A stretch of DNA of 32,436 nucleotides from Bdellovibrionales bacterium (GCA_022707945.1 JAKIZQ010000004.1:1-32436); one strand, 5' to 3'; positions 7,246 through 21,982 are shown, numbered from the stretch's first letter. Notes: generated from the sequence alone by a model not told the origin. Numbers and translations: made by a program.

Positions 7246-9615
7246 TTAAGCTACAGCTTTAACCTGTTTTTTTGAACCCTTAAAGAATTCTACAGACTCT
7301 ATCTTCTTGGGCAACAGTGCCGCATCAATAACATCATCAACTCTTTCAACAAATATGAATTTAAGCTTCTTTTTAAATTCAGCTGGTATGTTCACAAGGT
7401 CCTTCTTGTTCAACTCTGGAGCTATAATAACTTTTATACCAGCCCTCATTGCCGCAAGTGCTTTTTCCTTAAGCCCTCCTATAGGAAGAACCTTTCCAGA
7501 TAAACTTATTTCTCCAGTCATTGCAACATCCTTTGATACAGGACGACCAGTTATATGTGAAATTATAGCCGTAGCTATTGCAATACCAGCAGAAGGTCCA
7601 TCTTTTGGAACAGCACCAGAAGGAAAATGAACATGTACTTCGTTATGCTGAAAATAATCTTCTGCTATGCCATACTGCTGTGCCATGGTTTTAACATAAC
7701 TAAGGGCGGTGGTTGCAGATTCTTTCATTACTTCACCAAGGTTACCTGTCATCTTTAGTCCACTACCTTTAGAAGAAGCAACTTCTATCATCAATATCTC
7801 ACCACCATATTGTGTCCAAGCAAGACCGGTTGAGATACCTATTTCATCACTAACATTCTTTTCTTCTGATATGTACAAAGGACAGCCAAGATATTTTTCT
7901 ACCAACTGTGGTGTTATCTTTTCTGGAAAATTTTTATCAGTAGCTATAAGCTTTGCCGTCTTCCTGCAGATCTTACCTATAAGTCTTTCTAAGGTTCTAA
8001 CGCCAGCCTCTTTGGTGTACTGTGTTATTATTTTCAACAACACTTTGTCTGTAAATTTAATGTTTTTATTCTCTAAACCATTTTCATTTAGCTGTTTTGG
8101 TATCAAATGTTTTTGAGCTATTTTTATTTTTTCTTCTGAGGTGTAACCAGAAAGATTTATAGTTTCCATTCTGTCCCTTAAAGCAGGAGGTATTGTGTCC
8201 CACATATTAGCTGTAGCTATAAACATTACATTGGTAAGATCAAAAGGAAGGTTCATGTAATGGTCTCTAAAAGAAAAGTTTTGTTCTGGATCAAGAACTT
8301 CTAATAATGCAGAACTAGGATCACCCTTAAAATCTGCTCCAAGTTTATCTATTTCATCGAGTACAAAAACAGGATTATTTGTACCAGCCTGTTTAAGACT
8401 TTGTATTATCTTGCCTGGCATAGCTCCAACGTAGGTACGTCTATGACCCCTTATTTCTGCCTCATCCTTAACTCCACCAAGAGATATTCTTACAAACTTA
8501 CGGCCAAGAGCCCTTGCTATGGATTTTCCTAATGATGTTTTACCAACTCCAGGTGCGCCAACGAAACAAAGTATAGGTCCTTTTATTTTCTTATTAAGCT
8601 TACTAACAGCAAGATGCTCTATTATCCTCTCCTTTATTTCTTCAAGGTCATAATGATCCTCGTCTAATATTTTCTTTGCATGCTCAAGGTCCATATTATC
8701 TTCGCTATTTATCATCCATGGTGTTTCTGTTATCCACTCAAGATACGTCCTTAATACCGCAGATTCACTTGCATCAGGATGCATTCTTTCTAATCTATCA
8801 AGTTGTTTAAAAGCCTCTATTTTAACTTCTTCTGGCATTTTTATTTCTGTAAGCTTTCTTCTTATATCGCTCATGTCTTCATTTTTTCCGTCGTTGTCAC
8901 CAAGTTCAGACTTAATCGCTTTCATCTGTTCCTTTAAGAAGTATTCTTTTTGAGCTCTTGTCATTTCGTCTTTTGCCATATTGTTTATTTTGTTCTGTAA
9001 AGAGATTATCTCTGCTTCTTTCAATAGATGTTCATTAACTTTATATAGTTTCTTTAAAGGATCTGTTTGTTCCAATATTTGCTGTGCATCCTGTGCATTA
9101 AGTCCAATGTTGGCCGCTATTATGTCTGCTATCTTGCTTCCGTCTTTTATTTCATCCATTACTACAAGTATGTCTGGTGAAAGCAGTTTTCCCATCGCTA
9201 CTATTTTTTCTATTTGCTCTCGGATGTTCCTCATTAAAGCAGATATTTCCGGATTGCTTACATCAAGTTCTTTCTCTTCTATATTCTCTACTTTAACTTT
9301 AAAGAACGGATCTGTCTGTTCAAACGATTTTATTACAGCTTTATGCATCCCTTGTATAAGAACTTTTGCTCTCCCGTCTGGAAGTTTTTTCATTCTTACT
9401 ATCATTGCAACAGTACCTGTTTCATATATCTGATCTGGTGTTGGTGCTTCATCTAGCATGTTTTTTTGTGCAGATAGGAACACCAACCTATTACCTTCAA
9501 GCGCTTCTTCTACGGCTTTTATAGAATTATCCCTGCCAACAAAAAGTGGAAGTATCATATATGGGAAAACTACTATGTCCCTAACTGGTAATAACGGCAT
9601 TACAGAAGTACTCAT
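7246..9615 (-). CDS. lon: ATP-dependent protease Lon
   Basis: 789 aa with an N-terminal LON substrate domain, AAA+ Walker A GAPGVGKTS, and a protease domain containing PKDGPSAG (catalytic Ser). Confidence 0.97.
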   Translation of the reverse strand: MSTSVMPLLPVRDIVVFPYMILPLFVGRDNSIKAVEEALEGNRLVFLSAQKNMLDEAPTPDQIYETGTVAMIVRMKKLPDGRAKVLIQGMHKAVIKSFEQTDPFFKVKVENIEEKELDVSNPEISALMRNIREQIEKIVAMGKLLSPDILVVMDEIKDGSKIADIIAANIGLNAQDAQQILEQTDPLKKLYKVNEHLLKEAEIISLQNKINNMAKDEMTRAQKEYFLKEQMKAIKSELGDNDGKNEDMSDIRRKLTEIKMPEEVKIEAFKQLDRLERMHPDASESAVLRTYLEWITETPWMINSEDNMDLEHAKKILDEDHYDLEEIKERIIEHLAVSKLNKKIKGPILCFVGAPGVGKTSLGKSIARALGRKFVRISLGGVKDEAEIRGHRRTYVGAMPGKIIQSLKQAGTNNPVFVLDEIDKLGADFKGDPSSALLEVLDPEQNFSFRDHYMNLPFDLTNVMFIATANMWDTIPPALRDRMETINLSGYTSEEKIKIAQKHLIPKQLNENGLENKNIKFTDKVLLKIITQYTKEAGVRTLERLIGKICRKTAKLIATDKNFPEKITPQLVEKYLGCPLYISEEKNVSDEIGISTGLAWTQYGGEILMIEVASSKGSGLKMTGNLGEVMKESATTALSYVKTMAQQYGIAEDYFQHNEVHVHFPSGAVPKDGPSAGIAIATAIISHITGRPVSKDVAMTGEISLSGKVLPIGGLKEKALAAMRAGIKVIIAPELNKKDLVNIPAEFKKKLKFIFVERVDDVIDAALLPKKIESVEFFKGSKKQVKAVA

Positions 9616-16082: not shown

Positions 16083-16158
16083 GTCCCCATCGTCTAGCGG
16101 CCTAGGACATGGCCCTCTCAAGGCTAAAACACGGGTTCGATTCCCGTTGGGGACGCCA
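16083..16158 (+). tRNA. tRNA-Glu (anticodon CUC), CCA encoded
   Basis: 76-nt cloverleaf: acceptor GTCCCCA/TGGGGAC, D arm GTCT-AGCGGCCT-AGGAC, anticodon arm TGGCC-CTCTCAA-GGCTA, T arm ACGGG-TTCGATT-CCCGT, discriminator G, then CCA. It closely parallels canonical bacterial tRNA-Glu. Confidence 0.93.
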
Positions 16159-16248
16159 AGCTTTCAATTCAATAAATCCAAAGTGATGCAAAACACCCCA
16201 AACAGGACTCTCGAACTCGCTACAATAAAAATGTAAACTAATGTCCTT

Positions 16249-16812
16249 TTACTTAACTATCGAGTCATATACTTTTTCAAGTTTTTTAAATTTAATAGCA
16301 TTATCGGGTGTAAGTTTTACCTCTAATGTCTTACCTTTTTTAAAATTCAAAGGAATGCTCCAACCAATTGCTCCATCATCAGCCCCTATCATTCTAGTAA
16401 CTAGCCAAGCTTTTGGTAAACAATTAGTTTGGTGTCCATGTTTGAAAGGCGTATCTTTATTAATATTGTTCTGGAGATCCCAAATATGAGAGCCTGTAAC
16501 TGTATCTAAAACATGGTTCCAATAATTAACTACCATATTCTTTTTCTCTGATATGTTTGTACCTTCAATTTTTTGATCAGGTTTAATTTTTATTAGTTTT
16601 TCCCTGTCAGCAGTTATCTTCTTTTTAAAATGTTCCATCGGATCTTGTCGTACTACTGTAAAAAGGACATAGTTTATTCCTTTTGGGTATTGCAATTTAA
16701 ATTCAGCATTACAAATTTCATTTTCAACATCATTCCCTTTTTTAGAAGCAAAAGCTGATGAGTTTAATAAAAGACCACATGTCACAATAAAAATTCCAAG
16801 GATTTTATTCAT
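16249..16812 (-). CDS. Secreted hypothetical protein (cassette 1)
   Basis: 187 aa with a signal peptide (MNKILGIFIVTCGLLLNSSAFA) and a good SD (AAGGGAGG, 5 nt before the ATG). I recognise no family. Confidence 0.7.
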   Translation of the reverse strand: MNKILGIFIVTCGLLLNSSAFASKKGNDVENEICNAEFKLQYPKGINYVLFTVVRQDPMEHFKKKITADREKLIKIKPDQKIEGTNISEKKNMVVNYWNHVLDTVTGSHIWDLQNNINKDTPFKHGHQTNCLPKAWLVTRMIGADDGAIGWSIPLNFKKGKTLEVKLTPDNAIKFKKLEKVYDSIVK

Positions 16813-16882
16813 AACGTCCTCCCTTTAAGTTCTAAACGTCATTGTACTGCTCCTTTTAATTTTAGTATAGTGAGACTATGTC

Positions 16883-17010
16883 AGTTCGAGTTTTTCTACT
16901 TGGACGCCCTTGTTTTCTTAAGCTCTTTTGTGAAAGCCCAGTATTTACAAGGTTCTTCAGGCTACACACTCAATGCAAGCGGTTCGAAACTCATCTACTA
17001 GGGGACGCCA
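16883..17010 (+). repeat. tRNA-Glu-derived ~128-bp repeat, copy R1
   Basis: It begins AGTTCGAGTTTTTCTACTTGGACGCCC and ends GCGGTTCGAAACTCATCTACTAGGGGACGCCA. It is collinear with R2 and R3 over the full length. The last 10 nt are identical to the 3' end of tRNA-Glu. Confidence 0.9.
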
Positions 17011-17130
17011 TCTTTTTTTATTTAACAATTTCAAATCGATATAAAACACCCCAAGCAGAACTTCCAAACCGTGCGACAAATGCATATATCTATGTTTAAA
17101 TGATCATAATATCCTGATGGAGGCAAATAA

Positions 17131-17778
17131 ATGAAAAAAATAAAAGCAACTAGAAATAAAATAATAGCTCTACTAATATTGGTCATAATCTTTTTGTTCG
17201 GTATTTATACATTTAGATATTCTGTAAACAGCAGTTACAAGATTTCTTCTCATGGTGATATCCCAACCTTAAAAATTGGAAGACATGTGACCGTAAGTAA
17301 ATTAGCTTATGATTTTAGGTTTCCAATCATCGGTAAACTAATAAAAAGAAACGATCCTGTTAGGGGCGACCTTATAGTTTTCATTCCGCCTGATGGTAGC
17401 TCTAAATTTTATGTTAAGAGAGTTATTGGTGTTCCTGGTGATAAAATTAGAATTGCTGGCGACCGTCTTTACATAAATGAACGTCTAGTAGAAAAGGAAC
17501 AAATACCTTTTTCTCCAACCATGGATGATATAGATAACAAAGAAGAATATAATTCTAACAAATATGCCCTTTATAATGAAAATCTTGAAGGGACTAAACA
17601 CCTTGTTCTTCAGGCCAAAGATAGAGACTCAATGTTGGGAAATTTTAGTATTGAAATTAAAATCACCGAAAACTCTTATTTCGTCATGGGGGAAAATAGA
17701 GACAATAGTATTGATAGTCGTGTGTTTGGTCTTGTAGGTAGAAACTCCATTATTGGAAAAGTCACACTGGATAAGTAA
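17131..17778 (+). CDS. Signal peptidase I (S26) family paralog lacking the canonical nucleophile Ser (cassette 2)
   Basis: 215 aa with an N-terminal TM helix. S26 boxes are present: RGDLIVF, YVKRVIGVPGD (general-base Lys kept) and GENRDNSIDSR. Box B reads SSHGDIPTL where LepB has PSGSMMPTL, which places Gly at the catalytic Ser position. A GGAGG SD precedes the ATG. Confidence 0.8.
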   Translation: MKKIKATRNKIIALLILVIIFLFGIYTFRYSVNSSYKISSHGDIPTLKIGRHVTVSKLAYDFRFPIIGKLIKRNDPVRGDLIVFIPPDGSSKFYVKRVIGVPGDKIRIAGDRLYINERLVEKEQIPFSPTMDDIDNKEEYNSNKYALYNENLEGTKHLVLQAKDRDSMLGNFSIEIKITENSYFVMGENRDNSIDSRVFGLVGRNSIIGKVTLDK

Positions 17779-17789
17779 TAATCCGCCGT

Positions 17790-17918
17790 GGTTCGAGAAT
17801 TTCTACTTGGGCGTCCCTGTTTTTCTTGGGGTGTTCTGTGTAAACTCAATGTTTTTAAGGCTCTTCAGGCTATATACTCCATAACTGCGGTTCGAAACTC
17901 TTCTACTAGGGGACGCCA
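17790..17918 (+). repeat. tRNA-Glu-derived ~128-bp repeat, copy R2
   Basis: GGTTCGAGAATTTCTACTTGGGCGTCCC...GGCTCTTCAGGCTA...GCGGTTCGAAACTCTTCTACTAGGGGACGCCA. GGCGTCCC (17810-17817) is the perfect complement of GGGACGCC (17910-17917). Confidence 0.9.
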
Positions 17919-17935
17919 CATAGAATCGAACTGAC

Positions 17936-18190
17936 TCATTTATAGACTTCTTTTCTGTGGCCTATTTTCACAATTAGGACAACTTCTTTTTCAATAACAT
18001 AGATTATTCTATAGTCTCCAACTCTAAGTCTTCTGCAACCTTTAAGACTATATTGTAGAGGTTTACCGAATCTTACAGGGTCATTAACAAGTTTTTCCTC
18101 TATTGCTCTTTTTATTTTGAGCTTATCCGGCTTTGAAAGGCTCGGGATGTCATCCTCAACAACACTTTCAAGATATTCTATCTTATACAT
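17936..18190 (-). CDS. RelE/ParE-family type II toxin (cassette 3)
   Basis: 84 aa with the hallmark GKPLQYSLKGCRRLRVGDYRIIYVIE...VKIGHRKEVY. Its start abuts the antitoxin stop (18190/18191). Confidence 0.9.
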   Translation of the reverse strand: MYKIEYLESVVEDDIPSLSKPDKLKIKRAIEEKLVNDPVRFGKPLQYSLKGCRRLRVGDYRIIYVIEKEVVLIVKIGHRKEVYK

Positions 18191-18412
18191 CTATTTCCAC
18201 GCTTTAGAGTGAGCTACTCTTTTTCGTTTCTGACTTAAACGATTGTCGGCAATCTCAGAAAAATAAATGTCTTCTTCCCTTTCTAAAGACCTCTTTATTA
18301 AGTCAAGACTAACACTAGACAGAGATTGTTTGGCTTTATCTGCTATTTTCTTTAAAACCAGAAAAAGCTCATCCTCTAGCGTTATATTTATTCTTTGCTT
18401 TGCTGTTGGCAT
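18191..18412 (-). CDS. Ribbon-helix-helix (CopG/RelB-like) antitoxin
   Basis: 73 aa. The N-terminal RINITLEDELFLVLKKIADKAKQSLSSVSLDLIKRSL fits an RHH fold. It is translationally coupled to the toxin, and a GGAG SD precedes the ATG. Confidence 0.8.
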   Translation of the reverse strand: MPTAKQRINITLEDELFLVLKKIADKAKQSLSSVSLDLIKRSLEREEDIYFSEIADNRLSQKRKRVAHSKAWK

Positions 18413-18435
18413 TTGTTTATCTCCTTCTATTCATA

Positions 18436-18465
18436 AGTGTAACACAGGTGTAGCACTCTTGTCAA
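18436..18465 (-). promoter_or_regulatory. Toxin-antitoxin promoter with overlapping imperfect palindrome (putative operator)
   Basis: The minus strand reads TTGACA-18 nt-TACACT, ~20 nt upstream of the antitoxin SD. The imperfect inverted repeat GTGCTACAC/GTGTTACAC overlaps the spacer and the -10. Confidence 0.55.
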
Positions 18466-18490
18466 CGCAAAAGTTAAACCTATCAACATT

Positions 18491-18619
18491 AGTTCGATTT
18501 AATCCACTTGGGCATCCTTGTTTTTCTATGGCTGTTTAGTGGGAATCCAATAGTATCAAGGTGTTTCAGGCAACATACTCTATACAGGCAGTTCGAAACT
18601 CATCTACTAGGGGACGCCA
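18491..18619 (+). repeat. tRNA-Glu-derived ~128-bp repeat, copy R3
   Basis: AGTTCGATTTAATCCACTTGGGCATCC...GTTTCAGGCAA...GCAGTTCGAAACTCATCTACTAGGGGACGCCA. The 3' 30 nt are near-identical to R1 and R2. Confidence 0.9.
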
Positions 18620-18721
18620 AGTATTAATTAATAAAAAGCTTTTACGGTACGAACAAAACTTTGGTTATAACTCTTATATGATCAGATGTTTTTATAATCT
18701 ATTTTCTATAACACCACCCTA

Positions 18722-19480
18722 TTACCACGTGATAAAAAGATTATATGTTGAACCAGGTTCTACCAATAGCTTTTGATCAAATGTTAGCGCAAGCTTGTTT
18801 TGTTTTAACAACGCTTTATTAAGTAATAGAGAAAACTCATACTTATCTTTAACACAAACAACCTTATCTAGTCCCATTATCTCATCATTACACTCTTCTG
18901 TTTTGTATTCGGTATTGCATGTAAAATATATTGTTTCTAAATTAAATAAACTTTTTAATTTACTAACTGGAAGATCTGAAACTATATATATAAGACTTTT
19001 ACATTGAGGTTCAAAGCTTTGTTTTGATACAAGTACAGAACTAATAACAGATTCCAATTTACTAAATGTAACAGGAGTTTTATCTACATCAAAGGTCTCA
19101 GGATTCTTACTGTCAATCTTTTTGCCTAAAACAAGTTTATAAGTAGCACCACCTAACAAACGGTCCTTAAACACATATTTATACTTATAGAAGTCCTTGT
19201 GTTTAAAAACAATAGAGTTGTAATTTGTAGCATAATAAAAAGTATAACTTTTCTTTTTATTATCGTATTCAACTGGATCTTTCACGCCATAAGAACTAAA
19301 GGAAACTTTCTCGATATCACTATATATAGTAAGCTTTGCACAAGCCCTATCATTAACATCCTTAACAGTTACTTCTGGTTCTTTGTCAAGTTTAACAAAT
19401 TCAGAAACTTCAAATTCAAAAGAGAATAAGTTTAAAGAAATTAAAAACAAGAACAAAAAATAAAAAGATTTCACAAACAC
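18722..19480 (-). CDS. Secreted hypothetical protein, paralog A
   Basis: 252 aa with a signal peptide followed by FEFEVSE. It is collinear with 19610..20344. The GTG start is uncertain; the second GTG at 19474 has better SD spacing. Confidence 0.7.
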   Translation of the reverse strand: MFVKSFYFLFLFLISLNLFSFEFEVSEFVKLDKEPEVTVKDVNDRACAKLTIYSDIEKVSFSSYGVKDPVEYDNKKKSYTFYYATNYNSIVFKHKDFYKYKYVFKDRLLGGATYKLVLGKKIDSKNPETFDVDKTPVTFSKLESVISSVLVSKQSFEPQCKSLIYIVSDLPVSKLKSLFNLETIYFTCNTEYKTEECNDEIMGLDKVVCVKDKYEFSLLLNKALLKQNKLALTFDQKLLVEPGSTYNLFITW

Positions 19481-19609
19481 CTCTTTTTAGTTAGGTCTAT
19501 TAAAATTTTACTGAATTATACCTTGGTTGCTTCGGAATTTGCTAGAGAAATAACCCATACATACAGCTCAAGACGCATCCATTCGGTAAAGTTCAAGCCT
19601 TGGAAAAAA

Positions 19610-20344
19610 TCAACGCCAGCTAATTAATAAATTATAAACTAGATTTTTTTCAATAGTTATATCACCTATAGCGCTTTTATCTAAGGAACGTATATTATTT
19701 AGAAGCTCATTAAAACTAACAAGTTTTTTTATACAAATCATTTTATCTATATTTTCAACTGGCTCAGAACACGGAGGTGTTTCACAAGAAACATGTGTAA
19801 TGTCTTGGTTAAACAGAGTTTTAAGTGTTTTAACAGGAAGATCAGAAATTAATCTTATTGCAGCTTTGCAGTCTTCGTTTTTCATGTATCGGACCGTCAT
19901 ATCAGAAGGGTCCATTTCTAATGAATTAAAAACAATTTTATTTTTAGAAATCTTAAATTTATTAGGGTCCTTACTGTCCTTTTTTGTGCCTAAAGATACC
20001 TTATACGTTTTGCCTTTCTCTACTCCTTTAAAAGTGTAGTAATACGGAACGTATTCTTTGTGTTTAAACCAAAGAGACTTAGAACCCCAAGGGAGATAAA
20101 GAATATAGGTGTTGTTAGGTTTATTATTTTCAATTCCCACTATACCCAAACTACCAGATCCAAAATTAACATCATTAATTTCTGTAGACACAACAACTTT
20201 AGCACAAATATCATTGTTTTGATCCTTAATCGTTATCTCAGGAGATTTGGCTACCTCTGCCATTTCTGATATTTCAAACTCAAAAGCACAAAGAGAAAAT
20301 GGCATAAGTATAAAAAGCATATAGCCAACTTTTTTTAGATTCAT
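19610..20344 (-). CDS. Secreted hypothetical protein, paralog B
   Basis: 244 aa with a signal peptide followed by FEFEISE, and a GGAGGGG SD. Motifs shared with paralog A: PE[VI]T[VI]KD, CAK, FKHK, TYK, DSK.P, SDLPV..LK.LFN and C-terminal YNL.I.W. Confidence 0.75.
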   Translation of the reverse strand: MNLKKVGYMLFILMPFSLCAFEFEISEMAEVAKSPEITIKDQNNDICAKVVVSTEINDVNFGSGSLGIVGIENNKPNNTYILYLPWGSKSLWFKHKEYVPYYYTFKGVEKGKTYKVSLGTKKDSKDPNKFKISKNKIVFNSLEMDPSDMTVRYMKNEDCKAAIRLISDLPVKTLKTLFNQDITHVSCETPPCSEPVENIDKMICIKKLVSFNELLNNIRSLDKSAIGDITIEKNLVYNLLISWR

Positions 20345-20426
20345 CTACCCCTCCATTATTAAATATAGACTATTATATCTCATCTGTTTAATAAATGTCA
20401 CTCTTTACAAAAAAGTTAATATTTAT

Positions 20427-20456
20427 TTGACTTTGTTATGGGCATATGCTCATAAT
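20427..20456 (+). promoter_or_regulatory. Sigma70-like promoter abutting the DUF134 start (possible leaderless mRNA)
   Basis: TTGACT (20427-20432), an 18-nt spacer, then CATAAT (20451-20456). The ATG at 20463 lies only 6 nt after the -10, with no SD between them. Confidence 0.45.
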
Positions 20457-20462
20457 AAATAC

Positions 20463-20738
20463 ATGCGTCCAAAGAAATGTAGAAAGACCTGTTGTAGAAT
20501 AAAAGCTGATTACTTCAAACCAAGGAGCATTCCAATAGATGAACTAGAGGAGATTTCTCTTGAAGCAGATGAGCTAGAAGCAATAAGGTTAGCAGATCTT
20601 GACTCTCTATACCAAGAAGATGCGGCAAAAAAAATGGGTGTTTCCAGGCAAACTTTTGGAAGGATAATATTTTCTGCACACAAAAAAACAGCAGAAGCTA
20701 TCATAAAAGGTAAGGCGTTAAAAATCAGGAGGACTTAA
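20463..20738 (+). CDS. DUF134 (UPF0251) family putative DNA-binding protein
   Basis: MRPKKCRK..C..YFKP...LEADELEAIRLADLDSLYQEDAAKKMGVSRQTFGRI is the characteristic DUF134 N-terminal Cys/basic motif plus a sigma70-region-4-like HTH. The tracked ORF starts at the TTG at 20427; the ATG at 20463 is preferred. Confidence 0.8.
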   Translation: MRPKKCRKTCCRIKADYFKPRSIPIDELEEISLEADELEAIRLADLDSLYQEDAAKKMGVSRQTFGRIIFSAHKKTAEAIIKGKALKIRRT

Positions 20739-20740
20739 TT

Positions 20741-21112
20741 ATGAAAATCTGTATGCCAGTAAACGAGAACGATGGGATTAACAGCACTATTTGCGAACAC
20801 TTTGGTTCTGCACCATTATTCATGATAGTAGATACCAACACTCTCTCTATCACAGAAGTAAAGAATGATGATCAGCACCATGCGCATGGAATGTGTCATC
20901 CATTATCTGTACTTGGTAATTACAAATTTGACGGCATCGTTGTTGGCGGAATAGGTGCCGGTGCGTTAAACAAACTCAAAAACGCAGGAATAACAGTTTA
21001 TATAACTGAATACTCTAACATCAGCAACACTATCAAGGCCTATAACGAGAACAAACTAAAAGAAATGGATCAAAATAATGTTTGCTCTCACCACGGGCAC
21101 ACATGTAAATAA
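20741..21112 (+). CDS. NifB/NifX/NifY-like (dinitrogenase Fe-Mo cofactor biosynthesis domain) small protein
   Basis: 123 aa: MKICMPV...ICEHFGSAPLFMIVD...GMCHP...FDGIVVGGIGAGALNKLKNAGITVY, which matches the NifX_NifB fold family. It has a Cys/His-rich tail (CSHHGHTCK). A GGAGG SD is present, and the gene starts 2 nt after the DUF134 stop. Confidence 0.8.
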   Translation: MKICMPVNENDGINSTICEHFGSAPLFMIVDTNTLSITEVKNDDQHHAHGMCHPLSVLGNYKFDGIVVGGIGAGALNKLKNAGITVYITEYSNISNTIKAYNENKLKEMDQNNVCSHHGHTCK

Positions 21113-21121
21113 AGCAGAGAA

Positions 21122-21517
21122 CTATCTTATTACTTTACTCATGCCACAGCCAAAAATACTTTGATCCTGCAACCAAGAATAATTATCACCAACTCTAACG
21201 TAACAGGTATCACTATCAGAAAGGTCATAAGTTTCTGTGGCTGTGAATATCTCGCCATATCTTGTGCTTCTGTCTACGGTTTTACTAATCGTTCTATAAA
21301 AGCTCCAGGATAAAGAGATCTCTTTCTCCTTATCATCATACTTTTGTGAGAGAATAAAATCATCAGAACAAAACGCTTTTACTATTGATGGCGTTGATTC
21401 GTTATATTTCAACTCTACATAACAAGTATCATAAGTTTCAAACAAATCACCGGCAGTGATTACATAATAGTCAGGGCTAGCAAATAGCATCGAAGATAAG
21501 AAAATTAACAAAAACAT
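21122..21517 (-). CDS. Small secreted hypothetical protein
   Basis: 131 aa with a short signal peptide (MFLLIFLSSMLFASP). An internal duplication is suggested by ETYDTCYVELK and ETYDLSDSDTCYVRV. No family recognised. Confidence 0.6.
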   Translation of the reverse strand: MFLLIFLSSMLFASPDYYVITAGDLFETYDTCYVELKYNESTPSIVKAFCSDDFILSQKYDDKEKEISLSWSFYRTISKTVDRSTRYGEIFTATETYDLSDSDTCYVRVGDNYSWLQDQSIFGCGMSKVIR

Positions 21518-21520
21518 CTT

Positions 21521-21889
21521 TTACCTCCTAAGATGTGGGACATTATTACCAAATTCAATCAATACTCTAGAAACCCAAGAAGGTTCATTATTAGTATCAT
21601 CACCATTTTGTCCGCTGGTATTATTGGTGTTATTAGATTCAACACACATAATTCTAACACCATCTTCATGATTGGCTTTTATCCAAGCCGAACCATCATT
21701 CTCAAATTCTATTAAATGACACCTGCCACTAAGATCTATAACAGTTTTATCACAATAGTTCTTTATAACTTCTACATATACCTGTTTAATCCTTATGCCT
21801 TCTGCACCCATTTCAAGACTGTTACAGAACCAATCGGCCCACAAAAAATTTGAACTTAAAAAAGCGACAACAACGACTAATCTTTTCAT
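21521..21889 (-). CDS. Small secreted hypothetical protein
   Basis: The preferred start is the ATG at 21889 (MKRLVVVVAFLSSNFLWA), with a GGAGG SD 9 nt upstream. The tracked ORF extends to 21922. It has an Asn/Thr-rich low-complexity stretch and four Cys. Confidence 0.6.
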   Translation of the reverse strand: MKRLVVVVAFLSSNFLWADWFCNSLEMGAEGIRIKQVYVEVIKNYCDKTVIDLSGRCHLIEFENDGSAWIKANHEDGVRIMCVESNNTNNTSGQNGDDTNNEPSWVSRVLIEFGNNVPHLRR

Positions 21890-21982
21890 TTCTGATTTAA
21901 CCTCCAAAAGTTTATGAAGCAAACTTTTCCACTTAAAATACTTATTGTATAATTCATTATTTTAATGTATTGATGATTTTAA

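What the first reader, a model, noticed from the sequence alone, without database searches (positions are those of the whole stretch)
16083..18619. tRNA-Glu-anchored array of tRNA-mimic repeats delimiting compact gene cassettes, with no recombinase in view
Three same-orientation copies of a ~128-bp element lie directly downstream of tRNA-Glu(CUC) (16883-17010, 17790-17918, 18491-18619). All end in GTTCGAAACTC[A/T]TCTACTAGGGGACGCCA. The last 10 nt are identical to the tRNA 3' end, including the encoded CCA, and GGTTCGA copies its T-loop. The end-to-end intervals are 852, 908 and 701 bp. Each interval holds exactly one self-contained transcription unit, in mixed orientation: a secreted orphan, an S26 peptidase paralog, and a RelE/RHH toxin-antitoxin pair with its own promoter. 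Gene ends sit only 11-120 bp from the repeat edges. This geometry fits a gene-cassette array of ORF plus recombination site; toxin-antitoxin cassettes are typical of sedentary chromosomal integrons. It also fits serial tRNA-targeted integration, where junctions look like attP. However, the sites are not canonical attC, and I recognise no integrase, transposase or reverse transcriptase anywhere in the 32 kb. This could be a cassette-capture system that uses tRNA-like sites and a recombinase acting in trans.
Basis: partly seen in the sequence, partly recalled or inferred. Interest (0 to 1): 0.8.

Follow-up and report, generated by a model that had tools for sequence, protein, structure and literature searches.

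The report
Recombinase-less gene cassettes stacked at tRNA-Glu
Three small accessory-gene cassettes, each carrying its own ~128-bp attachment site, have been inserted one behind another at the end of a tRNA-Glu gene in an uncultured Bdellovibrio-like bacterium; the enzyme that most likely moves them is a large serine recombinase that I found only in related genomes, not in this window.

Summary
tRNA-Glu(CUC) (16083-16158) is followed by three co-oriented ~128-nt repeats (R1-R3), each ending in the tRNA's last 10 nt. They delimit three payloads: an orphan, an S26-like protein and ParE/RHH.

R is not a tRNA-like RNA (no conserved fold), not an attC and not a dispersed REP/MITE. I recovered more than 25 further copies from related metagenomes and MAGs. 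Wherever the context is visible, the array starts at the same tRNA-Glu next to grpE-dnaK-dnaJ.

Payloads differ between genomes, and the breakpoints fall at the 10-bp core. L001 and L031 are 100% identical up to GGGGACGCCAAA and unrelated afterwards. Some relatives have no cassettes at all.

No recombinase lies in the 32-kb window. In relative L042, however, the first "cassette" at the same tRNA is a 537-aa large serine recombinase (LSR) whose ORF runs antisense into the tRNA.

All 26 R copies carry GTTCGA-N15-GGACG, against GTTCGA-N10-GGACG in all 13 tRNAs and one tRNA-like fragment. That 5-bp offset is the published attP-versus-attB half-site signature of serine integrases.

Best reading: an SCC-like composite island of LSR-dependent, recombinase-less mini-cassettes. 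This is a new variant of a known kind, and the mechanism is inferred, not shown.

The parts
16083..16158 (+). tRNA-Glu(CUC). Its 3' part acts as the chromosomal attachment site (attB-type left half-site GGTTCGA 16134-16140, then 8 nt, then the core GGGGACGCCA at 16149-16158).
   Evidence: The spacing GTTCGA-N10-GGACG is the same in all 13 tRNA-Glu genes of relatives. The array starts here in the window and in L009, L023, L028, L031 and L042.
16159..16219 (+). D2 module, copy a. A 58-nt conserved right-arm sequence directly after the core, ending in an inverted box (..CCCCAAACAGGACTCTCGAAC).
   Evidence: Nine non-redundant copies are detected (E 1e-17 to 3e-6), including a weaker, decayed one at the distal end of the L016/L032 array. 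The seven well-matched copies each lie directly after a core (of the tRNA, an R or an N).
16249..16812 (-). Payload 1: a 187-aa secreted orphan with no family match.
   Evidence: Homologues form the first cassette in L009 (locus 85% identical) and L023 (68%).
16883..17010 (+). R1, the attachment site borne by cassette 1. Box A is at 16884-16910; box B plus core is at 16981-17010.
17011..17071 (+). D2 module, copy b (left arm of cassette 2).
   Evidence: E 7e-14.
17131..17778 (+). Payload 2: a 215-aa S26 signal-peptidase-like protein. The nucleophile Ser is replaced by Gly in the alignment to E. coli LepB structures.
   Evidence: PF10502, 7.5e-39. (query SSHGDIPTL against LepB PSGSMMPTL).
17790..17918 (+). 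R2, the attachment site borne by cassette 2.
17919..17934 (+). Short right arm CATAGAATCGAACTGA. The inverted motif TCGAAC (17926-17931) lies 10 nt from GGACG, the same spacing as in the tRNA. The R2 junction therefore looks like an attR (long P-type half plus short B'-type half).
   Evidence: (the only junction with an exact inverted motif at N10), and direct reading.
17936..18412 (-). Payload 3: a ParE toxin (17936-18190) and RHH antitoxin (18191-18412) operon with its own promoter-like site at 18465-18436.
   Evidence: The same cassette (80% identity over 544 bp) sits behind an N element in L016 and is followed there by a decayed R.
18491..18619 (+). R3, the attachment site borne by cassette 3 and the last recognisable site of the array.
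   Evidence: No further R, D2 or N remnant is found up to 24500.
18620..21120 (.). Further variable DNA without recognisable sites: tandem 252-aa and 244-aa secreted paralogues, a DUF134 protein and a FeMo-co-family protein. It is absent from relative L026. It may be old cassettes whose sites have eroded, or unrelated island DNA.
   Evidence: (L026 goes from the tRNA to the homologues of 21122-21922), and (GC 0.30).

Best explanation
R1-R3 are DNA attachment sites carried by small mobile gene cassettes that lack their own recombinase.

Each cassette runs from one 10-bp core (GGGGACGCCA, identical to the 3' end of tRNA-Glu) to the next. It consists of a variable left arm (the 58-nt D2 module or a shortened form), a payload of one gene or operon, and the 128-nt R site ending in the core.

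Cassettes entered by site-specific recombination between this site and the 3' end of tRNA-Glu(CUC), or a core already in the array. This rebuilt the tRNA each time and stacked cassettes in tandem.

The most likely enzyme is a large serine recombinase of a Bdellovibrionota family that targets tRNA 3' ends. In related genomes it is itself the first element at this same tRNA. On this reading, R box B is a long 'P-type' half-site and the tRNA is the matching short 'B-type' half-site, 5 bp shorter.

The window encodes no such enzyme. Its three cassettes are therefore the equivalent of ccr-less pseudo-SCC elements in a composite island: movable only in trans, or now fixed.

Shown: the repeats, their restriction to this locus, cassette modularity with breakpoints at the core, the LSR at the same tRNA in relatives, and the strict 5-bp spacing offset.

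Inferred: that this LSR, or a paralogue, acts on R sites; the position of the crossover; and how tandem arrays form despite canonical LSR directionality.
For: 1. Locus specificity. An nhmmer profile of 15 distinct copies finds R only next to tRNA-Glu or on short contigs that break at the repeat. It finds none in the roughly 100 kb of housekeeping flanks held.

2. Cassette-level polymorphism.
- L026/27, L030 and L044/45 have tRNA-Glu without any R.
- Window 16159-21120 is missing from L026.
- L001 and L031 are 100% identical over the last ~195 nt up to GGGGACGCCAAA, then unrelated.
- The DUF2628 cassette follows an R core in L001 but an N core in L014, at 92.6% identity.
- The ParE/RHH cassette is shared at 80% identity with L016 in a different context.
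- Window and L009 share cassette 1 but differ from 13 nt past the core onwards.

3. The conservation pattern fits a protein-binding DNA site, not an RNA. Box B plus core is 0.95 conserved, box A 0.86 and the middle 0.74. There are 0 covarying pairs and fold z-scores run from -0.95 to +0.91.

4. Distal sites are decayed and proximal ones are intact. This is expected if insertion happens at the tRNA end.

5. Recombinase.
- L042 ORF 318-1931 has Resolvase and Recombinase domains. It directly abuts tRNA-Glu, and its last 18 codons are the antisense of the tRNA.
- L043 carries the same gene, and MAG contig L029 has a weak remnant. The same MAG holds an R copy on contig L003.
- 73 of 120 homologues end in the antisense-tRNA tail W-x(4,5)-[SL]N, against 0 of 240 control proteins. 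Two of them (P0243, P0304), plus the L042 LSR, end in the exact tRNA-Glu tail WRPQRESNPCFSLERAMS; two more (P0242, P0248) share the terminal SLERAMS with one or two substitutions upstream.

6. Site geometry.
- GTTCGA-N15-GGACG in 26 of 26 R copies, against GTTCGA-N10-GGACG in all 13 tRNA-Glu genes and the one tRNA-like fragment in L046 (14 of 14).
- The far boundary of the L042 LSR element has the long spacing too (GGTTCGA-N13-GGG-AC).
- Rutherford et al. 2013 show that the outer (ZD) motif lies 5 bp closer to the centre in attB than in attP, and that the attP half-site is 25 bp (PMC3783163).
- P plus P' reconstructed from L042 is pseudo-palindromic around GGACG (ATCCCGTTGG / CCAATCGGAT; read).

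7. A precedent for LSR-built tandem arrays that include recombinase-less members: SCC composite islands (PMC7029136).
Against: - No LSR, or any other recombinase, is in the window. None lies in the 10 kb either side of the L023 array or the 10 kb distal to the L032 array.
- No contig shows an LSR and a full R together. The link rests on a shared target, shared geometry and one MAG-level co-occurrence.
- Canonical serine integrases do not recombine attP with attL or attR, so a stack of P-type sites is not what the textbook model predicts.
- Right half-sites are heterogeneous. Only the R2 junction shows a clean inverted motif.
- R is 128 nt plus D2, much longer than a ~50-bp LSR attP. Box A, the conserved middle and D2 are unexplained and look more like the arm sites of tyrosine-integrase attP.
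- The same-strain contigs from six samples all have the identical array, so there is no sign of ongoing turnover in this population.
Confidence: 0.55

Rival explanations
1. The architecture is the same, but the enzyme is a tRNA-targeting tyrosine integrase acting in trans. The cassettes would be miniature cis-mobilizable elements or decayed remnants of larger islands (as in tycheposon or CIME accretion), and R plus D2 would be a lambda-type attP with arm sites.
For: - A 10-bp identity block at the extreme 3' end of a tRNA is classic for tyrosine integrases.
- The conserved arms are long (128 + 58 nt) and carry repeated motifs in direct and inverted orientation.
- Tandem accretion with older elements pushed distally is documented for tyrosine-recombinase elements at tRNAs (10.1101/2020.12.28.424599).
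- Low-GC viral contigs carry a 29-nt tRNA-Glu 3' fragment as a likely attP.
Against: - No tyrosine integrase was seen in any of roughly 14 arrays or about 35 payloads scanned.
- This model does not predict the strict 5-bp spacing offset or the LSR sitting at exactly this site.
- The viral attP flanks show no similarity to R, N or D2.
Confidence: 0.2
2. There is no dedicated recombinase. The array grew by duplication and by homologous recombination between R copies (for example after transformation), and the tRNA-like end is a historical accident.
For: - No recombinase is in view.
- R copies supply about 128 bp of similarity.
- The array is identical in six samples.
Against: - R copies are only 72-83% identical, which is poor substrate for homologous recombination.
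- The DUF2628 cassette follows an R in one genome and an unrelated N element in another. The two contexts share only the 10-nt core, or 11 nt counting one adjacent base.
- Breakpoints coincide with the core, not with positions inside R.
- Copies within one array are no closer to each other than to copies in other genomes.
Confidence: 0.06
3. R is a transcribed tRNA-like or regulatory RNA (a processing signal, small RNA or leader) repeated between genes.
For: - R ends in an encoded CCA plus the acceptor 3' strand.
- It lies 40-120 nt from gene starts on the opposite strand.
- A neighbouring element class (N) is clearly structured.
Against: - RNAalifold on 15 copies finds 6 pairs, none covarying.
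- MFE z-scores run from -0.95 to +0.91 on both strands.
- There is no Rfam hit.
- Changes in box A break, rather than compensate, the only long-range pairing with the invariant 3' end (reading).
- This model does not explain cassette modularity.
Confidence: 0.04
4. It is a chromosomal integron remnant (CALIN) with unusual attC sites.
For: - The layout is gene plus site.
- The site length (128 nt) resembles the attC sites of sedentary integrons.
- The payloads include toxin-antitoxin pairs and small secreted orphans.
Against: - The ends of R are direct repeats, not inverted ones.
- There is no R''/R' (RYYYAAC/GTTRRRY) pair and no hairpin potential.
- No IntI is present.
- Payloads mostly point towards the anchor and have their own promoters.
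- The anchor is a tRNA, not an attI.
Confidence: 0.03
5. R is a dispersed intergenic repeat (REP/MITE-like) that happens to cluster here.
For: Many R-bearing contigs are short and lack context.
Against: - In every copy where the context is visible, the array starts at tRNA-Glu and all copies are in the tRNA's orientation.
- None is found in the other 30 kb of the window or in the housekeeping flanks of 10 relatives.
- Each MAG gave only one R-bearing contig.
Confidence: 0.03

Closest known systems
Staphylococcal cassette chromosome (SCC) elements and their composite islands (Ccr large serine recombinases; rlmH/orfX 3' end)
   Same: - Insertion at the 3' end of a conserved gene, which stays intact.
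- A short direct repeat of that end at every junction.
- Tandem composite islands in which several modules lack the recombinase (pseudo-SCC) and depend on one supplied in trans.
- An accessory cargo.
- An LSR as the enzyme; here this is inferred from relatives (PMC7029136).
   Different: - The target is a tRNA gene, not rlmH.
- The units are far smaller, mostly 0.6-2 kb with one gene or operon (up to ~2.8 kb for three genes), against tens of kb.
- Every unit carries a conserved 128-nt site with two half-site-like boxes, often with a 58-nt left module.
- The LSR is single, not CcrAB, is unrelated in lineage, and its ORF ends inside the tRNA.
- The host is an uncultured Bdellovibrionota lineage.
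- No excision data exist.
Integrons and CALIN arrays (IntI, attI, attC)
   Same: - Arrays of single-gene cassettes, each with its own ~60-140-nt recombination site.
- Toxin-antitoxin pairs and orphan secreted proteins as cargo.
- Arrays can exist without a nearby integrase.
- Distal sites decay.
   Different: - The site is not a hairpin with inverted R''/R' ends.
- The anchor is a tRNA 3' end.
- No IntI is present.
- Cassette genes mostly face the anchor and use their own promoters.
- The likely enzyme is a serine recombinase, not a tyrosine one.
Tycheposons and other tandemly accreted tRNA-targeting islands or CIMEs (tyrosine recombinases)
   Same: - Serial integration at a tRNA 3' end.
- Partial tRNA repeats between units.
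- Older units are pushed distally and degrade.
- Integrase-less remnants occur (10.1101/2020.12.28.424599).
   Different: - Those elements are several kb to tens of kb with integrase and replication modules, and their remnants are irregular.
- Here the regular single-gene units share a conserved site family, only 10 nt of tRNA identity is kept, and the half-site geometry points to a serine recombinase.
Phage-type large serine integrases (A118/LI, phiC31, Bxb1) and their attP/attB sites
   Same: - Resolvase and Recombinase domains.
- The outer motif sits 5 bp further from the centre in the mobile-element half-site than in the host half-site (PMC3783163).
- The reconstructed attP is pseudo-palindromic.
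   Different: - Canonical sites are about 50 and 40 bp, with no extra boxes.
- Canonical enzymes do not build tandem arrays of P-type sites.
- Here the attP overlaps the 3' end of the recombinase ORF, and the target is always a tRNA 3' end.

Membership tests
Integron / CALIN | attC site: imperfect inverted repeats (R''-L''...L'-R', RYYYAAC/GTTRRRY) that fold into a hairpin | tested here: not met
   The ends of R are direct repeats (box A and box B). Fold z-scores run from -0.95 to +0.91 on both strands. The consensus fold has 6 pairs and no covariation.
Integron / CALIN | IntI tyrosine recombinase next to attI (for a complete integron) | tested here: not met
   No Phage_integrase hit in any of the 30 window ORFs scanned. 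The anchor is flanked by grpE-dnaK-dnaJ in all relatives.
Integron / CALIN | Cassettes mostly promoterless and co-oriented for transcription from the anchor end | tested here: not met
   Most payloads are on the strand opposite to the tRNA and R. The toxin-antitoxin cassette has its own promoter-like site.
SCC-like composite island (LSR-mobilised cassettes) | Insertion at the 3' end of a conserved gene, with a direct repeat of that end at each junction | tested here: met
   The core GGGGACGCCA occurs at the tRNA end and at the end of every R. Breakpoints fall at the core.
SCC-like composite island (LSR-mobilised cassettes) | A large serine recombinase encoded by at least some elements at the site | tested here: inconclusive
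   Met in relatives: L042/L043 carry the LSR directly at tRNA-Glu, and L029 has a remnant. Not met in the window. No contig shows an LSR and a full R together.
SCC-like composite island (LSR-mobilised cassettes) | Recombinase-less modules in tandem with the same junction repeats | tested here: met
   The window has three modules. L028, L016/L032, L001 and L002 have two to seven.
SCC-like composite island (LSR-mobilised cassettes) | Excision to circles and re-integration catalysed by the recombinase | not testable with these tools
   This needs read-level junction mining or experiments.
Serine-integrase attachment sites | The outer (ZD) motif lies 5 bp further from the crossover in attP than in attB half-sites | tested here: met
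   Left half-sites: N15 in 26 of 26 R copies, against N10 in all 13 tRNA-Glu genes and the one tRNA-like fragment in L046. The criterion comes from PMC3783163.
Serine-integrase attachment sites | Pseudo-palindromic site with a matching right half-site | tested here: inconclusive
   The inner arms reconstructed from L042 are inverted repeats at 8 of 10 positions. Among R junctions, only R2 has an exact inverted TCGAAC, at the short (B') spacing. The others are heterogeneous.
Tyrosine-integrase tRNA islands (tycheposon / CIME) | A tyrosine recombinase in autonomous members at the same site | tested here: not met
   None among about 35 payloads or the flanks. The only Phage_integrase seen (L046) lies in an unrelated island without R.
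REP / MITE-type dispersed repeats | Many copies scattered over unrelated intergenic regions | tested here: not met
   Copies occur only in arrays at tRNA-Glu wherever the context is visible. A caveat: no closed genome was available.
Diversity-generating retroelement | The repeat pair is a TR/VR with adenine-specific differences, next to an RT | tested here: not met
   R is intergenic and its differences are not adenine-specific. A genuine DGR (RT, Avd, TR/VR with 24 of 33 mismatches at TR adenines) occurs only as a payload in L011/L015.

The most novel reading that the evidence does not exclude
R cassettes form a true gene-capture platform that is independent of integrons. A tRNA-3'-end-specific large serine recombinase would use tRNA-Glu as its 'attI' and the 128-nt R site (two P-type half-sites) as its 'attC'. 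It would insert, excise and reshuffle single-gene cassettes in trans across a whole bacterial lineage, including toxin-antitoxin pairs, a complete DGR and its lectin-fold targets. The structured ~225-nt N element would act as an 'empty cassette' or RNA cofactor. This would also mean an LSR that naturally recombines site pairs forbidden to phage integrases.
Probability: 0.3. Interest if true: 0.8.

Novelty: new variant of a known kind. Interest (0 to 1): 0.6.

Why it matters
If the inferred mechanism holds, single-gene cassette arrays have been invented a second time, with a serine rather than a tyrosine recombinase and a tRNA gene as the docking site.

It would add a natural family of tRNA-targeting serine integrases with compact, well-defined long and short half-sites. 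Serine integrases are the enzymes used for genome engineering, and one that tolerates serial insertion at the same site would be of practical interest.

It would also explain how a poorly known, uncultured Bdellovibrionota lineage trades toxin-antitoxin systems, surface lectin-fold proteins and a diversity-generating retroelement.

If the mechanism does not hold, the finding is still a clean, well-bounded example of a tRNA-anchored variable islet.

Tried and rejected
- **Known RNA families.** Rfam gave only tRNA hits on the window at E up to 1 and on 12 + 4 related loci.
- **R as a structured RNA.** Single-sequence folds and RNAalifold on 15 copies were negative.
- **R as DGR TR/VR or IMH.** Rejected once L011 was read. 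The DGR there is a payload with its own TR/VR.
- **R or N on plasmids or phages.** No BLAST match. The box B pattern is absent from IMG/VR.
- **Homology between R and N beyond the core.** nhmmer with --max found nothing above shuffles. My earlier idea that N equals D2 + R joined is therefore unsupported. Only a shared CTTCAG motif at a similar distance remains.
- **Box A / box C pairing as a stem.** There is no covariation, and R+D2 folds have z from about +0.45 to -1.9.
- **Xer/dif-like sites in D2.** By eye there is one partial match to a XerD arm in one copy. It is not conserved, so I dropped it.
- **Looking for a recombinase at the far end of a long array.** In L016 extended to L032, the distal flank is housekeeping.
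- **Unknown payloads as hidden recombinases.** The 406-aa L028 protein and others have no PDB, NCBIfam or Pfam hits.
- **Eroded sites distal to R3 in the window.** None found.
- **Context of the closest LSR homologue, P0241 (L046).** It lies in a different mosaic island without tRNA-Glu, R, N or D2, so it did not give the hoped-for LSR + R contig.

Full report

Yes. tRNA-Glu(CUC) lies at 16083-16158 on the + strand. Three co-oriented ~128-nt copies lie at 16883-17010, 17791-17918 and 18492-18619, with 84% mean column identity.

The shared 29-mer GTTCGAAACTCWTCTACTAGGGGACGCCA occurs three times and never in 100 shuffles. Its last 10 nt equal the tRNA 3' end, including the encoded CCA.

The three intervals hold:
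- a 187-aa orphan on the - strand;
- a Peptidase_S26 protein on the + strand;
- a ParE/RHH pair on the - strand with its own promoter-like site.

Pfam scans of all 30 sizeable ORFs show only housekeeping genes on both sides and no recombinase or reverse transcriptase. The left flank runs PBP1, AlaRS, RecX, RecA, PgpA, FHA, Lon, DksA, LppC, DnaJ, DnaK, GrpE. The right flank runs LysR, MFS, tRNA-Gln and the Pho regulon.

Each repeat has a second, weaker copy of the box at its 5' end (box A, GTTCGA-N5-TCYACTTGG(G/A)CG(T/C)CC). A 58-nt module (D2) follows both the tRNA and R1.

**2. What R is not**

- **Not a known RNA.** Rfam gives no hit.
- **Not a structured RNA.** Fold z-scores run from -0.95 to +0.91 on either strand. 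A consensus fold of 15 distinct copies finds six pairs and no covariation.
- **Conservation looks like a protein-binding DNA site.** It is concentrated in the two boxes (box B plus core 0.95, box A 0.86) with a looser middle (0.74).
- **Not an attC.** Its ends are direct repeats, not inverted ones.
- **Not a DGR repeat.** See section 6.

**3. Where else it occurs**

One scan of 185,579 species genomes and one of JGI metagenomes with the box B pattern gave 3 + 13 loci. The named ones are uncultured Bdellovibrionales MAGs. IMG/VR, plasmids and phages gave nothing.

A profile built from 15 distinct full copies finds more than 25 copies, always co-oriented in arrays with one to a few genes between them.

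GrpE homologues define a tight clade (60-78% identity; the next hit is at 48%). I fetched its loci. Every member has tRNA-Glu(CUC) next to grpE-dnaK-dnaJ. What follows the tRNA differs:
- Window: three R cassettes.
- L009: the same first cassette, then something else.
- L023: the orphan cassette with two decayed R copies.
- L028: at least four units.
- L031: one FGE-sulfatase cassette.
- L026/27, L030 and L044/45: no R at all.

Window 16159-21120 is simply absent from L026. No R was found anywhere in the housekeeping flanks.

**4. Breakpoints**

- L001 and L031 are 100% identical over the last ~195 nt up to ...CTACTAGGGGACGCCAAA, and unrelated from the next base.
- The DUF2628 cassette (92.6% identical) follows an R core in L001 and the core of an unrelated element (N) in L014. 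The two contexts share only the 10-nt core, or 11 nt counting one adjacent base.
- The window's ParE/RHH cassette recurs at 80% identity in L016, behind an N core and in front of a decayed R.
- Window and L009 diverge 13 nt after the R1 core.
- R copies within one array are no more alike (75-79.5%) than copies from different genomes (72-83%). This argues against local duplication or gene conversion.
- Distal sites are eroded while proximal ones are intact.

Together these points call for site-specific recombination at the 10-bp core, with insertion at the tRNA end.

**5. The candidate enzyme**

No array, payload or flank showed a tyrosine integrase.

In L042 (GrpE 63% identical to the window's), the 1.6 kb after tRNA-Glu had no called gene. 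It holds a 537-aa ORF (318-1931) with Resolvase and Recombinase domains, that is, a large serine recombinase (LSR). It lies on the strand opposite to the tRNA, as most payloads do. Its last 18 codons are the antisense of the tRNA.

The antisense of the window's own tRNA translates to WRPQRESNPCFSLERAMS*, which is exactly this tail. L043 carries the same gene. Contig L029 has a weak remnant, and its MAG also holds an R copy on contig L003.

The family is widespread in Bdellovibrionota. Of 120 homologues, 73 end in the generic antisense-tRNA tail W-x(4,5)-[SL]N, against 0 of 240 control proteins. Two of them (P0243, P0304) end in the exact tRNA-Glu tail, and two more (P0242, P0248) share the terminal SLERAMS with one or two substitutions upstream. 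The family as a whole therefore sits at tRNA 3' ends, and this tRNA-Glu is a recurrent target.

**6. Site geometry**

| Site | Spacing | Count |
|---|---|---|
| tRNA-Glu genes (13) plus the tRNA-like fragment in L046 | GTTCGA-N10-GGACG | 14 of 14 |
| R box B | GTTCGA-N15-GGACG | 26 of 26 |

The far boundary of the L042 LSR element has the long form as well (GGTTCGA-GAGCTATCCCGTT-GGG-AC). So does the 3' end of N (CCGAG-N11/12-GGGGAC).

For serine integrases, the outer zinc-ribbon-domain motif lies 5 bp closer to the crossover in attB than in attP, and the attP half-site is 25 bp (Rutherford et al. 2013, PMC3783163). The observed offset is exactly that.

Joining the two ends of the L042 element gives a pseudo-palindrome around GGACG (ATCCCGTTGG | GGACG | CCAATCGGAT).

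In the window, the R2 junction has an exact inverted TCGAAC at the short spacing (17926-17931). It therefore looks like an attR, with a long P half and a short B' half.

These points make the LSR the best candidate. None of them is a functional test.

**7. What does not fit**

- I have no contig with both an LSR and a full R.
- Canonical LSRs do not recombine attP with attL or attR, so tandem stacks need a relaxed enzyme (as reported for Ccr in SCC elements; from my own knowledge) or another route.
- Right half-sites are heterogeneous.
- R is much longer than a 50-bp attP, and box A, the conserved middle and D2 are unexplained. They would fit the arm sites of a tyrosine integrase, which I keep as the main rival (0.2).
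- Six samples carry the identical window array, so it may be fixed in this population.

**8. Comparison with known systems**

The closest working analogue is the SCC composite island. It inserts at the 3' end of a conserved gene, has direct repeats at each junction, is built by an LSR, and includes recombinase-less pseudo-elements stacked in tandem (PMC7029136).

Integrons share the logic of one gene plus one site per cassette and the cargo spectrum. They fail every defining feature tested here.

Tycheposon-type accretion at tRNAs shares the serial-insertion dynamics (10.1101/2020.12.28.424599) but uses tyrosine recombinases and large units.

What is different here:
- the very small, regular units;
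- a conserved 128-nt double-box site family spread through a lineage;
- a tRNA target;
- an LSR whose ORF ends in the tRNA.

I therefore rate it a new variant of a known kind. My confidence is 0.55 for the full explanation and about 0.85 for the core claim, that these are site-specific cassette insertions at the tRNA-Glu 3' end.

**9. Cargo**

Payloads seen across arrays:
- ParE/RHH (twice), MNT/HEPN and Fic/DOC;
- YhcG nuclease, DUF4143 ATPase, CAAX protease and DeoC + ADH;
- ankyrin, Sua5, Big_2 and DUF2628 proteins;
- several Lcl_C or FGE-sulfatase (C-type-lectin-fold) secreted proteins;
- one complete DGR.

The window's S26 protein has Gly at the position of the LepB nucleophile Ser, so it is probably not an active signal peptidase.

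Noticed in passing
L026:3097-3325(-), L030:7216-7437(-), L028:3742-3971(-), L014:507-730(-), L016:7498-7723(-) and 9177-9389(-), L044:5676-5890(-); absent from the window: 'N' is a ~225-nt element that follows tRNA-Glu directly in the relatives without cassettes, and follows an R core in others. It ends in a second copy of the tRNA 3' end (TCCCGCTGGGGACGCCA). It is strongly structured: 62 consensus pairs, 21 of them with compensatory changes; 90% of cells paired against 34-53% in slid controls; 0 of 500 shuffles reached the observed values on four of five measures (24 of 500 on 'further pair types'); MFE z of -7 to -8. It matches no Rfam family. G-U pairs outnumber A-C mismatches, so the tRNA-sense strand appears to be the folded one. 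It could be a new tRNA-trailer RNA, an 'empty cassette', or a folded DNA site.
   Followed up: partly
L042:318-1931(+), and proteins P0241-P0360: A Bdellovibrionota-wide family of ~530-aa large serine recombinases whose ORFs run antisense into tRNA genes. 73 of 120 end in W-x(4,5)-[SL]N, the antisense of CCA through the T-loop. Different tails imply different tRNA targets. The gene in L042 had not been called by the source's gene caller.
   Followed up: partly
L011:1-2200(-) and L015: A complete diversity-generating retroelement sits as one cassette: a 145-aa Lcl_C-type target with VR, a 113-aa Avd, an AAC-rich TR and the RT. 24 of 33 TR/VR mismatches fall at TR adenines. Many other cassettes encode Lcl_C or FGE-sulfatase lectin-fold proteins without an RT, and these might be remote DGR targets.
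   Followed up: partly
window 16159-16219 and 17011-17071; also L002, L009, L012, L013, L016/L032, L028: D2 is a conserved 58-nt module. Its seven well-matched copies each lie directly after a core; a ninth, weaker copy (E 3e-6) is a decayed one at the distal end of the L016/L032 array. D2 is weakly pseudo-palindromic and ends in an inverted GTTCGA box about 55 nt from the core. Shortened versions follow R2, R3 and L002 Rb. Its role is unknown; it might be a second att site or accessory binding sites.
   Followed up: partly
window 17131-17778 (+): The S26 'signal peptidase' cassette protein aligns to E. coli LepB structures with Gly in place of the nucleophile Ser (SSHGDIPTL against PSGSMMPTL), while the KR(V/A)(I/V)G lysine box is kept. 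It is probably a catalytically dead paralogue.
   Followed up: partly
window 18722-20344 (-): Two tandem paralogous secreted proteins (252 and 244 aa) with no family match lie in the lowest-GC stretch of the region (0.30). They are absent from relative L026 and are not bounded by R sites.
   Followed up: no
L034-L038 and L040 (IMG/VR contigs, GC 0.33-0.38): Viral contigs carry the exact 29-nt 3' part of this tRNA-Glu (ACGGGTTCGATTCCCGTTGGGGACGCCA) without a full tRNA. This is probably the attP core of phages that integrate at the same tRNA. Their flanks are unrelated to R, N or D2.
   Followed up: partly
L024, L025, L029, L004, L006, L009, L011-L015: Many metagenome contigs end at or within a few tens of bases of the tRNA-Glu 3' end or an R copy. 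The repeats break short-read assemblies, so array lengths are underestimated.
   Followed up: no
L046:2544-9589: Next to the closest LSR homologue lies an unrelated island with a P4-type tyrosine integrase, a HaeII-type restriction-modification pair and a Fic protein, bounded by tRNA fragments. It is a mosaic of elements that target tRNA ends.
   Followed up: no
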